This document shows positions 24,459 to 28,016 of a stretch of 38,905 nt of DNA, piece by piece. The notes beneath the pieces were generated by a model. That model searched no databases. It saw only the letters and a program-made list of their open reading frames with translations, and was not told the DNA's origin. The stretch spans positions 1 through 38,905 of the forward strand of contig JAPVWS010000481.1 in NCBI GenBank assembly GCA_027493295.1, in the 5' to 3' direction. The position numbers and the translations under genes are program-made. Each line of letters opens with the position of its first letter. Positions within the stretch are counted from its first letter, which is position 1. Origin of the DNA: Candidatus Versatilivorator vitaminiformans. Its GTDB lineage: Bacteria; Acidobacteriota; Terriglobia; Versatilivoradales; Versatilivoraceae.

Positions 24459-26231
24459 TTACATCGCTGCCGAGTGTGTGAACCGGTCTCCCTGGGCGCT
24501 CACGGCGGACCGGAACAACGCCAGGGCATCATCGATTCCATCGCCCAGGTAGCGGAATTCATCGGGTATCGACGCATGGCGCACACCGGTTTGTGCGATC
24601 AAGGCGTGCTTCTGTTTCTCGATTCCTTCCACATCCCGAACATCGTTCGAAACGGATTCCTTGAACCTCTCCAACTCGGTCGCCAAATACTGCTTGAAGT
24701 CGCCGATGGCAATCTGCTGACTGGTGATTCTTTCAAAGTGGTAGCCCAGCGCAGCCAGGCGGATCGCCTCCGGGAGCAAGCCGGGATGGTCCCTGGAGAC
24801 CTTGGCGATGAACTTGGTATAGGCCGGGATCTGCTCGGCGGAAAGTTGTCGGCGAACAGACATGATGGCCAAAAAAAGCGCGTTCCTGCTCATCGGTTTC
24901 AGCAGATGCGGGATGGGCCTGAGGTGTTCGAGCAACGTCAGGCAGCGCATGAAGTATTTCTCGAGAGTCGGGTCATAGATGGTGGTGATGACGCGGCGGT
25001 ATCCCTCCATCAATGTCTCGATATCCATCTCCGGCTTGAAGTTGAGGGCGACGTTGACACTGGTCAGGTTCAGGACGCCGTCGGCGCTGCTTCCGAAGGA
25101 CTCGTCCAATAGCCGGTTCTCCCTTTTGAGGCGATCATACAGATTCGTGTCTTTCAGAGCGTTCAACAATCCGACCATGGCCATGGGAATGCCGACTCCC
25201 TGTATAAAATCGATCTGGGCATCGAAGGCGCCCTCGTCATCATCATCCAGACCCAGGATGAATCCTCCATCGACCCGCATCCCTTTCCGTTGGATCTTGC
25301 GAACGCAGTTGAAAAGATAGTTCTCTTCCCGCTTGCTGACGTTCTGCGGTTTCTTCATCTTGCGCAACGCCTTGGGATTGGGCGTTTCGATACCCAGAAA
25401 CACGGAATTGAAACCCGCTTCAATCATGCCGTCCATCAATTCATCCAAACGGGCCAGGTTCACGCTGGCTTCGGTGAACAGGGAAAACGGATAGCCACGG
25501 GCTTTCTGCCACTCGGCAATGGCACACACCAACTTCATCGCTTCTCGCTTGTTGCCGATGAAATTGTCGTCAACCAGGAAAACATGGCTGCGCCAGCCCA
25601 GTCGATACAGCAGTTCGAATTCGTCCAGCACCTGATCCGGCAACTTTGTCCGGGCCACGCGACCGTAGAGCTTGGTAATATCGCAGAATTCACAGTCGAA
25701 CGGGCATCCACGGGAGAACTGTATGGACATGGAGTAGTAGGCCTTCATGTCGATGAGGTCGAAGCGCGGAACAGGTGTCCTGGTCACATCCGGTTTTCGC
25801 GGCTCGCGGTAGATGGCTCTGGCCGTGCCGTTTTCCAGGTCCCGCAGAAAATCGACAAAGGTCTCCTCGGCCTCATCCAGCACAAAATGGTCTACACCGC
25901 CGATCTCGCCATGATAGGTGGTGGGATAGGGACCTCCGGCCACCACGGGGATGCCGGCCCGGTTGCATCGCTGCGTTACGGTGTGCAGGGATTCCCGCTG
26001 GACAACCATGGTGGAAGTAAACACCAGGTCCGCCCACTCCAGATCGGCATCCTCCAAGGGAGCCACGTTCATATCCACGACGCGCAGGTTGTATTTCAGG
26101 GGAAACATGGCGGCGACGGTCAGCAGACCCAGAGGAGGAAAGGCAGCCTTGATGCGGAAGATCTCCAGCGCAAAATTGACTCCCCAGTAGGAAGGAGGAT
26201 ATTCGGGATACACCAGAAGCGCGTTCGGCAT
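24459..26231 (-). CDS. B12-binding-domain radical SAM protein, paralogue 2 (SwfC-like)
   Basis: Start set at MPNALL (ATG 26231, GAGG 6 nt upstream) by homology with the paralogue. It has an N-terminal cobalamin-binding-type domain ([13 protein letters not shown]...VVAGGPYP), CxxxCxxC as GCPFDCEFC (codons 25683-25706), and a long helical C-terminal domain of the kind seen in DUF4070-type class B radical SAM enzymes. Confidence 0.85.
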   Translation of the reverse strand: [590 protein letters not shown]

Positions 26232-26273
26232 GTCAAGCCTCATTGGCTGTCGCGCAAGATTCAGAGCTTTCTT

Positions 26274-28016
26274 CTACACCGCCGCCGAGCGGGCGAGGCG
26301 GTCCGCCTGAGCATTCACAGAGACCCGAAAGGACTGCAACGCAGACTCGATTCCATCTCCATAGTATCGAAAGTCTTCCGGAATCAATTGGTTGCGCGCC
26401 TGAGCTCGCACGAACAACTCCTGCCTCCGAGCTCGGATCTCCTCCACTTCCTGAACGGAACTTGAAGAGGTTTCCCTGAAAATTTCCGCCTCGGCTTCCA
26501 AAAATACCTTGAAGTCGTGGATTGCCATCTGCTGGCGGGTGACCTTTTCAAAATGGTAGCCCAATGAGGCCAGGCGAATCGCCTCCGGGAGCATTCGGGG
26601 ATGGTCCTTGGAAACGCTGGCGATAAACCTCATATAGGCAGGGACTTGCTTGGCGGAAAGCTGCCGGCGCAGGCCCATCATGTTCGCATAAAGCGCGATC
26701 TTGCTCTGAGGTTTGTGCAAGTGCGGAATGGGTGTGAGGTGCTCGAAGAACGTCAGGCAACGCTCGAAGTAGTTCTCCAGAGTCGGGTCGTAGACGCTGG
26801 CGGTCACGCGCCGGTATCCCTCGATCAACGCTTCGGGATCCATCTCCGGCACGAAGTTGAGGGCCGTGGAGGTCGTGCCGATGGAAACCTCCAATAGCCG
26901 ATTTTCCGACTGCAAGCGTCGATACAGGTCGGTTCCCTTCAGGGCGCCCAACAACCCGATCAAAGCCATCGGAATGCCGGCCTCCTGAATAAAATCGATT
27001 TGCAGATCGAACACGCCCTCATCATCCTCGTCCAGGCCCAGGATGAACCCTCCCATGACCTGCATCCCTTTCCGCTGGATGGTTCGGACGGAATTGAGAA
27101 GGTAATTGTTGTCCCGCTTGTCGATGTTCTGAGGTTTCTTCATCTTCAGCAAGGCCTTGGGATTGGGCGTTTCAATACCCACGAACACGGAATTGAATCC
27201 GGCTTCAACCATGACGTCCATCAATTCATCCATGCGGGCCAGGTTCATGCTCGCTTCGGTGAACAGGGAGAAGGGATATCCACGAGCCTGCTGCCATTCG
27301 GCAATGACCCGAAGCAGCTCCATTGCAGCTCGCTTGTTGCCGATGAAGTTGTCGTTAACCAGGAATAGTCGCCCACGCCAGCCCAGTCGATACAAGGCCT
27401 CAAACTCTTCCACCATCTGATCCGGCGACTTGGTCCGGGCCACGCGACCGTAGAGCTTGGTGATGTCGCAGAACTCGCAGTCGAACGGGCAGCCTCGGGA
27501 GAACTGAACGCACATCGAGTGGTAACTCTTCGTATCGATGAGGTCGAAGCGCGGGACGGGTGTCCGAGTCATATCCGGCTTTCGCGGCTCGCGATAGATG
27601 GCATCGGCCGTGCCGCTCTCCAAGTCACGCAAAAAGTCGCCAAAGGTCTCCTCCACCTCATCCAGCACGAAGTGGTCGACACCTTGGATCTCATCGTGGA
27701 AGGAAGTGGGGAAGGGGCCCCCCGCCACCACGGGAACGCCGGCCCGGTTGCACCGCCCGATGACGGACTGGAGGGAATCGCGTTGAACGATCATGGTGGA
27801 GGTAAACACCAGATCCGCCCAGTCCAGGTCCGACTCCTCCAGGGGAATCACATTCATATCCACCACGCGGAGGTCGTAGTGCGGCGGAAACATCGCGGCG
27901 ACGGTGAGCAGACCCAAGGGTGGGAATGCTGCCTTGATGCCCAGCATATCGAGTGCAAAATTCGCACCCCAATAGGAAGGGGGGTTTTCGGGATAAACCA
28001 GCAGAGCATTCGGCAC
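26274..28016 (-). CDS. B12-binding-domain radical SAM protein, paralogue 1 (SwfC-like)
   Basis: GTG start with SD GAAGGAG 5 nt upstream. It has the same architecture as paralogue 2, with GCPFDCEFC at codons 27468-27491. Confidence 0.85.
   Translation of the reverse strand: [580 protein letters not shown]

What the first reader, a model, noticed from the sequence alone, without database searches (positions are those of the whole stretch)
24459..28016. Tandem duplication of the B12-radical-SAM gene inside the operon
The two radical SAM proteins are clear paralogues. By eye they are about four-fifths identical over the first ~100 residues and highly similar through the CxxxCxxC core (identical [26 protein letters not shown]). 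The DNA around the cluster-binding motif is near-identical (25661-25720 vs 27441-27500). They diverge in the C-terminal third, where paralogue 2 carries a ~10-residue insertion ([14 protein letters not shown] versus TTST). As I recall, the swf description lists a single swfC, so the duplicate may be a lineage-specific elaboration. Class B (cobalamin) radical SAM enzymes commonly methylate unactivated carbons. Two diverged copies could give two regiochemically distinct methylations (or iterative versus single), or one copy could have been recruited for a different radical reaction.
Basis: partly seen in the sequence, partly recalled or inferred. Interest (0 to 1): 0.65.

Follow-up and report, generated by a model that had tools for sequence, protein, structure and literature searches.

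The report
Two diverged swfC radical-SAM genes in tandem
A known but still product-less lipid gene cluster of sponge-type bacteria ("swf") carries here two intact, old and differently built copies of its vitamin-B12 radical enzyme instead of one. Arrays of two or three such copies turn up in other swf clusters too, so copy number probably sets how the sulfated lipid is decorated.

Summary
On the minus strand, swfA (PKS) is followed by two B12-binding/radical-SAM/DUF4070 genes, 70% identical in protein with one 10-residue indel, and then by swfB (reductase-sulfotransferase).

Both copies look functional. Each has its own ribosome-binding site. Each keeps the Cys triad and all 135 residues that are invariant in 85 relatives. 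Both are under purifying selection (orthologue dN/dS 0.14-0.24). I found no gene-conversion tract.

The pair is not private to this genome. It occurs in 7 of the 9 swf clusters in the genus (Candidatus Versatilivorator, Acidobacteriota). Among the 69 well-flanked swf loci of other species, no locus outside this genus has a tandem pair. Metagenome contigs, however, hold swf clusters with two and with three swfC genes.

The downstream copy belongs to a "long-loop" subtype whose insert carries a conserved NLxxVN motif. That subtype is the sole SwfC in several Nitrospirales clusters. The upstream copy is the common "short-loop" subtype. In 12 of 13 arrays the short-loop gene comes first and the long-loop gene last.

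So this is an old subtype pair rather than a recent local duplication. The two copies most likely perform two non-redundant tailoring steps, probably C-methylations, but that chemistry is untested.

The parts
28070..35146 (-). swfA: mono-modular, fully reducing type I PKS/FAS (KS-AT-DH-ER-KR-ACP), 2358 aa
   Evidence: Pfam domains. The AT-domain signatures FAGQGTQW and QCALVEL are visible in the translation, matching the swfA signature regions named in PMC3908369.
26274..28016 (-). swfC, upstream copy ('short-loop' subtype, clade up-A), 580 aa, GTG start
   Evidence: B12-binding + Radical_SAM + DUF4070. AAGGAG lies 6-7 nt before the GTG. Orthologues are 84-92% identical in G006, G007, G008 and G013. 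Orthologue dN/dS is 0.14-0.21.
27468..27491 (-). CxxxCxxC radical-SAM cluster motif of the upstream copy
24459..26231 (-). swfC, downstream copy ('long-loop' subtype, clade dn), 590 aa from ATG 26231 (the ORF is open from 26243)
   Evidence: B12-binding + Radical_SAM + DUF4070. Start revised from orthologues and RBS. Orthologues are 81-93% identical in six other species of the genus. Orthologue dN/dS is 0.17-0.24.
25683..25706 (-). CxxxCxxC radical-SAM cluster motif of the downstream copy
25050..25079 (-). 10-residue insert [10 protein letters not shown] (residues 385-394) at the start of the DUF4070 region; it defines the long-loop subtype
   Evidence: The only gap in the pairwise alignment. 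Conserved N-L-x-x-V-N in 19 long-loop SwfCs and absent from 36 short-loop ones. pLDDT is below 50 in the AF2 model.
21908..24415 (-). swfB: thioester reductase + sulfotransferase fusion, 835 aa
   Evidence: Pfam NAD_binding_4 + Sulfotransfer_3. TIGR01746 thioester-reductase domain. GGGAGG RBS.
19007..20590 (-). MFS transporter gene on the same strand, about 1.3 kb downstream of swfB; a possible exporter, link not shown
   Evidence: Pfam MFS_1

Best explanation
The window carries a swf ('sponge symbiont widespread fatty acid synthase') operon with the order swfA - swfC(short-loop) - swfC(long-loop) - swfB.

The two swfC genes are intact, co-oriented and separately translated HpnP-like class B radical SAM enzymes (B12-binding + radical SAM + DUF4070). 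They are not a recent local duplicate. They represent two old SwfC subtypes, which differ chiefly by a conserved 10-residue NLxxVN-containing insert at the start of the C-terminal domain.

The pair has been kept together in most swf clusters of the genus Candidatus Versatilivorator. Similar short-then-long arrays of two or three swfC genes occur in other swf clusters.

Inferred mechanism:
1. SwfA iteratively builds a saturated acyl-ACP.
2. Each SwfC performs its own non-redundant radical tailoring step on the chain. Most likely these are cobalamin-dependent C-methylations at two different unactivated carbons, or two successive methylations.
3. SwfB reduces the thioester to the alcohol and sulfates it.
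4. The lipid is then exported.

Shown here: paralogy, intactness, purifying selection, distribution, and the subtype structure. Inferred: the substrate, methyl transfer, and different regiochemistry.
For: - Paralogy and domains.
- Operon layout: gaps of 42-53 nt, an RBS before each gene, and no promoter or terminator signal above chance.
- Intactness: all 135 residues invariant across 85 SwfC and lone-copy sequences, including C176/C180/C183, are kept in both copies.
- Selection: paralogue dN 0.16-0.19, dS 0.72-0.87. Orthologue dN/dS is 0.14-0.21 (upstream) and 0.17-0.24 (downstream).
- No gene conversion: dS is even along the gene at 0.5-1.0.
- Distribution in the genus: 7 of 9 swf clusters have the pair, 2 have a single swfC.
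- Genus tree: the downstream copies form one clade (100/99), and the upstream plus single copies form the other (95/95).
- Other species: of 69 swf loci with full flanks, 54 have one swfC, 10 have none, and 5 have two. Four of those five are tandem pairs, all in Acidobacteriota records that match genomes of this genus. The fifth has two separate clusters.
- No tandem pair in 400 other Acidobacteriota genomes.
- The insert is shared with Nitrospirales SwfCs.
- Metagenomic clusters with 2 copies (L137, L139, L141) and 3 copies (L138, L142; L140 has a broken middle copy).
- First-slot copies of L139 and L142 join the upstream clade (99/94), and the last-slot copy of L139 joins the downstream clade.
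- In G003 and G004 the upstream slot holds a different short-loop lineage while the long-loop copy is retained. The AU test of one origin for all upstream-slot genes gives p = 0.03.
- The same three-domain architecture is found in HpnP, whose cobalamin dependence has been shown experimentally (PMC10697835).
- Nearest solved folds include the B12 methylases MgmA, CysS and TsrM.
Against: - No product is known for any swf cluster (PMC3908369; PMC9426513).
- Methylation is inferred from family resemblance only. The top structural hit is AprD4, a radical SAM diol dehydratase rather than a methylase.
- No NCBIfam equivalog model is reached.
- The trees cannot resolve the deep order. An in-genus origin (upstream and downstream copies as sisters) is not rejected (AU p = 0.505). 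A single origin of all long-loop copies is not rejected either (p = 0.151).
- Clusters with only one subtype, or with no swfC at all, are common, so neither copy is essential to the pathway.
- In G007 the downstream copy ends at a premature TGA after 510 residues.
- The insert is modelled with low confidence, so its position relative to the active site is unknown.
Confidence: 0.5

Rival explanations
1. This is a genus-specific in-situ tandem duplication followed by divergence. The downstream copy gained the insert after the duplication. The long-loop SwfCs of Nitrospirales and other taxa either descend from it by horizontal transfer or gained a similar insert independently.
For: The two genes are adjacent and co-oriented. 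Holding the upstream clade and the downstream clade together as one clade is not rejected and is marginally better in likelihood (AU p = 0.505). Both copies share M at residue 292 where most SwfCs have T. Among the GTDB species representatives examined, tandem pairs occur only in this genus.
Against: The insert motif is shared and conserved in sequence with SwfCs of other phyla. Four sites plus the indel group the downstream copy with the Nitrospirales type, against two sites that group it with the upstream copy. Paralogue dS (about 0.75) exceeds the deepest orthologue dS in the genus (about 0.6). Short-then-long arrays occur in clusters whose SwfA and SwfB are only 62-77% identical to ours.
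Confidence: 0.25
2. The two copies are functionally redundant. The second copy only raises dosage or is drifting towards loss.
For: Most swf clusters manage with one swfC or none. G009 and G012 lack the downstream copy. In G007 the downstream copy is truncated. Both copies are somewhat less constrained than the lone paralogue, whose dN/dS is 0.07-0.15.
Against: Both copies have stayed intact across species whose orthologue dS reaches 0.6, with dN/dS about 0.2. All family-invariant residues are retained. The short-then-long order is kept in 12 of 13 arrays. When the upstream slot was replaced in G003 and G004, the incoming gene was another short-loop type.
Confidence: 0.12
3. One copy is not a methylase. 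It would catalyse a different radical reaction on the chain, such as desaturation or dehydration, C-C coupling or cyclisation, or chemistry on the sulfate ester. Alternatively the two proteins work only as a heteromeric pair.
For: The best structural neighbour is AprD4, a radical SAM diol dehydratase rather than a methylase. No equivalog model of a known methylase is reached. The downstream copy carries six clade-specific changes at otherwise conserved sites plus the insert, against one such change in the upstream copy.
Against: Apart from the insert, no residue separates long-loop from short-loop SwfCs at the 80% level. The catalytic core therefore looks the same in both, which argues for the same chemistry on a different position. 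Clusters with only a short-loop or only a long-loop gene exist, so an obligate heteromer is unlikely.
Confidence: 0.15

Closest known systems
SwfC of the swf cluster (fosmid pPS11G3 of Plakortis simplex; POR_0549 of Poribacteria WGA-A3), Della Sala et al. 2013, PMC3908369
   Same: The operon partners are the same: swfA KS-AT-DH-ER-KR-ACP and swfB R+ST. The enzyme has the same architecture (N-terminal B12-binding domain, radical SAM core with CX3CX2C) and a similar length (585 aa versus 580 and 590 aa here).
   Different: The published clusters have one swfC or none. Here two diverged copies (70% identity) sit between swfA and swfB. Two subtypes can be told apart by a 10-residue insert. Arrays of up to three copies exist elsewhere.
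HpnP (hopanoid C-2 methylase) and HpnP-like proteins
   Same: The three-domain architecture B12-binding + radical SAM + DUF4070 is shared (PMC10697835). HpnP is a cobalamin-dependent C-methylase acting on a lipid.
   Different: The genomic context is a PKS cluster, not hopanoid genes. Neither copy reaches the curated cut-off of any NCBIfam model; the hopanoid models listed were HpnR (54 of 650 bits) and HpnJ (60 of 578 bits). Della Sala et al. also judged a hopanoid role unlikely.
CysS (cystobactamid pathway), an iterative cobalamin-dependent radical SAM methylase
   Same: It is among the nearest solved folds (9n1b) and was crystallised with pantetheinylated substrate analogues (entry titles). 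It shows that successive methylations can build branched alkyl groups.
   Different: Sequence identity is only 16-17% and TM-score about 0.48. CysS achieves several methylations with one enzyme, whereas here two or three separate enzymes are encoded.
AprD4 (apramycin pathway), a radical SAM 1,2-diol dehydratase
   Same: It is the best Foldseek match (6fd2, E = 5e-12).
   Different: It is a dehydratase acting on an aminoglycoside, with 17% identity. It serves as a warning that this fold does not prove methyl transfer.

Membership tests
swf cluster (Della Sala et al. 2013) | swfA: a single complete PKS/FAS module KS-AT-DH-ER-KR-ACP | tested here: met
   Pfam hits to ketoacyl-synt, Acyl_transf_1, PKS_DH_N/PS-DH, ADH_zinc_N, KR and PP-binding in that order on the 2358-aa product.
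swf cluster (Della Sala et al. 2013) | Conserved AT-domain signatures FSGQGTQW and QCALVEL, used as swf-specific primer sites | tested here: met
   The translation shows FAGQGTQW (one substitution) and QCALVEL. The motifs are as quoted in PMC3908369.
swf cluster (Della Sala et al. 2013) | swfB: fusion of a thioester reductase and a sulfotransferase | tested here: met
   NAD_binding_4 at residues 56-292 and Sulfotransfer_3 at 518-776. TIGR01746 domain. Identity to SwfB of swf loci in many phyla is 58-94%.
swf cluster (Della Sala et al. 2013) | swfC: B12-binding radical SAM protein with CX3CX2C, adjacent to swfA/swfB | tested here: met
   Both copies. Both nest inside the clade of cluster-linked SwfCs from 73 loci (97 SH-aLRT).
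swf cluster (Della Sala et al. 2013) | Host is a marine-sponge symbiont | not testable with these tools
   The source of the window is not given. Relatives are uncultured MAGs of phyla typical of sponge microbiomes.
Class B (cobalamin-dependent) radical SAM methyltransferases, HpnP-like | Architecture: N-terminal B12-binding domain + radical SAM core + DUF4070 | tested here: met
   All three Pfam families score above gathering in both copies. The B12-binding score of the upstream copy is marginal (32.6 against a cut-off of 32.1).
Class B (cobalamin-dependent) radical SAM methyltransferases, HpnP-like | Cys triad that binds the [4Fe-4S] cluster | tested here: met
   C176, C180 and C183 are invariant in 85 sequences, including both copies.
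Class B (cobalamin-dependent) radical SAM methyltransferases, HpnP-like | Binds cobalamin and transfers a methyl group | not testable with these tools
   There is no universal sequence motif for this. The genome encodes CobS, but CbiC was not found, so cobalamin may be salvaged. The closest fold, AprD4, is not a methylase.
Named hopanoid radical SAM equivalogs with NCBIfam models (HpnR, HpnJ) | Score above the curated NCBIfam cut-off | tested here: not met
   HpnR 54/51 bits against 650; HpnJ 60/52 bits against 578. Every other model is also far below its cut-off.

The most novel reading that the evidence does not exclude
SwfC copy number and subtype act as a combinatorial code for the swf lipid. 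Clusters with 0, 1, 2 or 3 swfC genes would make sulfated alkyl chains with 0 to 3 radical-installed modifications (methyl branches). Short-loop and long-loop enzymes would have different regiospecificity, set by the NLxxVN insert. Recombination between clusters of unrelated sponge symbionts would shuffle these modules, so each symbiont lineage displays its own variant of a shared lipid class.
Probability: 0.3. Interest if true: 0.6.

Novelty: new variant of a known kind. Interest (0 to 1): 0.4.

Why it matters
The swf cluster is one of the two most widespread PKS-type clusters in sponge microbiomes, and its product has been unknown since 2013. This analysis shows three things: the radical SAM tailoring gene comes in at least two old subtypes; it occurs in arrays of 0 to 3 copies; and the arrays keep a fixed short-then-long order under purifying selection. 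Together these give a concrete, testable handle on the chemistry. Expressing the same swfA/swfB with different swfC sets should yield a ladder of products. It also tells annotators that "swfC" is not a single orthologous group. In itself the finding is modest, because it is a paralogue pair inside a known cluster.

Tried and rejected
- Recent gene conversion between the copies: rejected. dS is 0.5-1.0 in every 60-codon window, and the longest identical run is 29 nt.
- Loss of catalytic residues in one copy: rejected.
- A residue signature separating long-loop from short-loop enzymes beyond the insert: none found at the 80% level.
- Resolving the deep branching: three ML trees (84, 56 and 65 rows) all give a basal polytomy. 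AU tests reject neither up+dn as sisters (p = 0.505) nor one origin of the long-loop type (p = 0.151).
- Placing the insert relative to the active site: the AF2 model has pLDDT below 50 in the insert, and its coordinates cannot be read in the Python box.
- Scan of JGI metagenome contigs with the downstream copy: only two short loci, uninformative.
- Literature: no paper on swf product chemistry or on multiple swfC genes was found. No paper mentions the genus name.
- Gene context of the third, lone paralogue: CreD and an MR/MLE enolase-type gene are its neighbours, which gives no lead to its function.
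Full report
**What is in the sequence**

The minus strand of the window carries four co-oriented genes:
- 28070-35146: a 2358-aa type I PKS with the domains KS-AT-DH-ER-KR-ACP.
- 26274-28016: a 580-aa protein.
- 24459-26243: a 594-aa ORF.
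- 21908-24415: an 835-aa fusion of a thioester reductase and a sulfotransferase.

An MFS transporter gene follows on the same strand at 19007-20590.

The two middle proteins both match Pfam B12-binding, Radical_SAM and DUF4070 above the gathering scores. They are 70% identical and 83% similar over 590 columns, with one 10-residue gap.

This layout is the "swf" cluster (swfA, swfB, swfC) described from sponge metagenomes. The published examples have one swfC or none, and the product is unknown (PMC3908369; still described only as swf-like clusters in 2022, PMC9426513).

- Identity is 79% over the first 100 residues and also over residues 1-360.
- The stretch [26 protein letters not shown] is identical in both copies.
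- The C-terminal third is more diverged.
- The insert is [10 protein letters not shown], residues 385-394, window 25050-25079.
In register they are roughly nine-tenths identical. The longest exact run shared by the genes is 29 nt, and overall DNA identity is 76.5%.
- The downstream gene probably starts at ATG 26231. Nearly all orthologues extracted begin M/[9 protein letters not shown] (a few differ by one residue), and a GAGG lies 8 nt upstream.
- The upstream copy has AAGGAG before its GTG start, and swfB has GGGAGG.
- Intergenic gaps are 42-53 nt. Promoter-like and terminator-like sites are no more frequent than in shuffled sequence.

**Are both copies functional?**

I aligned 85 sequences: cluster-linked SwfCs from many phyla plus the unlinked paralogues. 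In that alignment 135 residues are invariant, including the Cys triad C176/C180/C183, and both copies keep all of them.

The downstream copy has six clade-specific changes at otherwise conserved sites (G215S, L235V, Q319R, I353V, G361D, D363N) plus the insert. The upstream copy has one (L279V).

Nei-Gojobori estimates:
- Between the two copies within a genome: dN 0.16-0.19, dS 0.72-0.87.
- Orthologue dN/dS for the upstream copy: 0.14-0.21.
- Orthologue dN/dS for the downstream copy: 0.17-0.24.
- Orthologue dN/dS for the unlinked paralogue: 0.07-0.15.

dS is even along the gene, at 0.5-1.0 per 60-codon window. Only dN rises in the C-terminal third. So there is no recent gene conversion.

**Distribution in the genus**

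The assembly is a 534-contig MAG. Record titles of matching loci name its genus Candidatus Versatilivorator (Acidobacteriota, Terriglobia).

Of 14 species-level genomes of the genus:
- Nine have swfB.
- Seven of those nine have the tandem swfC pair (G000, G003, G004, G006, G007, G008, G013).
- Two have a single swfC (G009, G012).

A maximum-likelihood tree of the genus puts all downstream copies in one clade (100/99) and all upstream and single copies in the sister clade (95/95). The pair therefore predates the divergence of these species, and G009 and G012 lack the downstream type. In G007 the downstream copy stops at a premature TGA after 510 residues, right at the swfB start.

All 14 genomes also carry a third, unlinked paralogue, 66-68% identical to the two cluster copies. 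In this MAG it is split over contigs C138 and C178, which overlap by exactly 99 nt. In complete genomes it lies between creD and an enolase-superfamily gene. This lone group, together with homologues from a neighbouring genus, is sister to all cluster-linked SwfCs.

**Distribution elsewhere**

A scan of one genome per prokaryote species with a SwfB profile found 196 loci, of which 80 were returned. They come from Acidobacteriota, Latescibacterota, Nitrospirota, Gemmatimonadota, Alpha- and Gammaproteobacteria, Binatia, Tectimicrobiota, Chloroflexota and others.

Of the 69 loci with full flanks:
- 54 have one swfC.
- 10 have none.
- 5 have two. Four of these are tandem pairs, all in Acidobacteriota records that match genomes of this genus. 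The fifth (Candidatus Palauibacter) has two separate swf clusters.

A further 400 Acidobacteriota genomes showed no tandem pair.

The larger protein collection changed this picture. Several contigs each carried two or three close SwfC homologues. Look-ups of the contigs showed:
- swfA-swfC-swfC-swfB in L137, L139 and L141.
- swfA-swfC-swfC-swfC-swfB in L138 and L142.
- The same three-gene array with a broken middle copy in L140.
- A single long-type swfC in L143.

SwfA and SwfB of these clusters are only 62-80% identical to ours.

**Two subtypes**

The 10-residue insert of the downstream copy is absent from the upstream clade, the lone paralogues and 57 other SwfCs. It is present, with similar sequence, in five Nitrospirales SwfCs that are the only swfC of their cluster.

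Across 19 insert-bearing sequences the motif N-L-x-x-V-N is 84-95% conserved. No other residue separates long-loop from short-loop proteins at the 80% level. Among the 120 best database clusters, 28 are long-loop, 10 carry a different 3-residue insert, and 70 are short-loop.

In a 65-row tree with the insert columns removed:
- The first-slot copies of L139 and L142 join our upstream clade (99/94).
- The last-slot copy of L139 joins our downstream clade.
- The middle copies of L138 and L142 form their own insert-bearing clade.
- The L141 pair is a separate, recent short-short duplication.

In 12 of the 13 arrays seen, a short-type gene is first and a long-type gene is last before swfB. The 13 arrays are the seven species of the genus plus L137-L142.

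In G003 and G004 the upstream slot is filled by a different short-loop lineage that groups with Binatia and Latescibacterota SwfCs, while the long-loop copy is retained. Holding all upstream-slot genes as one clade costs 42 log-likelihood units (AU p = 0.03).

G007 has both swfC genes 90-92% identical to ours, but its SwfA and SwfB are only 73% and 69% identical. So the clusters are recombinant mosaics.

**What remains unresolved**

The deep order of the SwfC lineages is a polytomy in all three trees. The AU test does not reject the two copies being sisters (p = 0.505). It also does not reject a single origin of all long-loop copies (p = 0.151).

I favour an old short/long split for four reasons:
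- The shared, sequence-conserved insert.
- Four sites that group the downstream copy with the Nitrospirales type, against two that group it with the upstream copy.
- A paralogue dS above the deepest orthologue dS in the genus.
- The recurrence of short-then-long arrays.

I estimate about 0.6-0.7 for the old split, against about 0.25 for a genus-level duplication.

**Mechanism**

HpnP, the cobalamin-dependent hopanoid C-2 methylase, has the same three-domain architecture (PMC10697835). Della Sala et al. placed SwfC next to HpnP among methylases.

An AlphaFold2 model of the downstream copy has mean pLDDT 76.9 and pTM 0.80, with the insert below pLDDT 50. Its nearest solved folds are AprD4, MgmA, CysS and TsrM, at TM-scores of about 0.5. 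By sequence the PDB offers only remote hits, and no NCBIfam equivalog cut-off is reached.

I therefore infer, but have not shown, the following. Each SwfC installs one modification on the SwfA-made chain, most likely a methyl group on an unactivated carbon. Before or after that, SwfB releases the chain as an alcohol and sulfates it. The two subtypes are kept, ordered and selected separately, and either can stand alone in other clusters. So they are probably non-redundant and not obligate partners.

AprD4 as top structural hit is a reminder that a non-methylase chemistry is not excluded.

Two side observations bear on cofactor and substrate supply. The genome has CobS, but CbiC was not detected. 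Some multi-copy clusters sit next to a gene with sulfate adenylyltransferase (CysN-like GTPase) and APS kinase domains, which fits a need for PAPS.

**Verdict**

The feature is a new variant of a known cluster type: swf clusters with arrays of diverged swfC subtypes, which I did not find described in the papers searched. It is of moderate interest. Its main value is as a practical route to the still unknown swf product.

Noticed in passing
G000 contigs C138:2888-3635 and C178:1-1094 (loci L004, L003): A third, unlinked swfC-like gene of about 585 aa is split over two short contigs that overlap by exactly 99 nt. It is present in all 14 genomes of the genus, including the five without an intact swfB (G002 keeps only a fragment). 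It is under the strongest constraint of the three copies (dN/dS 0.07-0.15) and is sister to all cluster-linked SwfCs. Its neighbours are creD and an MR/MLE enolase-type gene. Its function is unknown and evidently independent of the swf PKS.
   Followed up: partly
L038 (G007:C109) 11030-12580: The downstream swfC of this relative ends at a premature TGA after 510 residues, and the swfB start overlaps it. Its two swfC genes are 90-92% identical to ours, while the flanking swfA and swfB are only 73% and 69% identical. This looks like a recombination breakpoint inside the 3' end of the gene.
   Followed up: partly
L035/L058 (G004) and L042 (G003), upstream swfC slot: In these two species the upstream swfC is only 78-79% identical to ours, although swfA, the downstream swfC and swfB are 92-94% identical. 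It groups with SwfCs of Binatia and Latescibacterota clusters. This is a module replacement by horizontal exchange.
   Followed up: partly
L126 (Longimicrobiales) and L134 (Candidatus Palauibacter): Two complete swfA genes lie within 22 kb, so two swf clusters sit side by side in one genome.
   Followed up: no
L138 10921-12450 and L142 10919-12448: A gene with a translational-GTPase domain (CysN-like) and an APS-kinase domain lies just downstream of the three-swfC clusters. This fits a local PAPS supply for the SwfB sulfotransferase.
   Followed up: no
L071 (Nitrospira RHO3_bin_20) and L122 (Caldilineaceae), upstream of swfB: swfA matches are short and fragmentary, covering about 3-4.5 kb instead of 7 kb, and no swfC is present. 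These look like decayed or heavily deleted swf clusters.
   Followed up: no
G002:C1:4870627-4871145: Only a 180-residue fragment of swfB with an internal TGA remains in this species of the genus. It is a relic of a lost swf cluster.
   Followed up: no
G000 whole genome: CobS (cobalamin synthase) is present on contig C295, where it matches in two pieces. CbiC (precorrin-8X methylmutase) was not detected in this 94%-complete MAG. The three B12-type radical SAM enzymes may therefore depend on salvaged corrinoids.
   Followed up: partly
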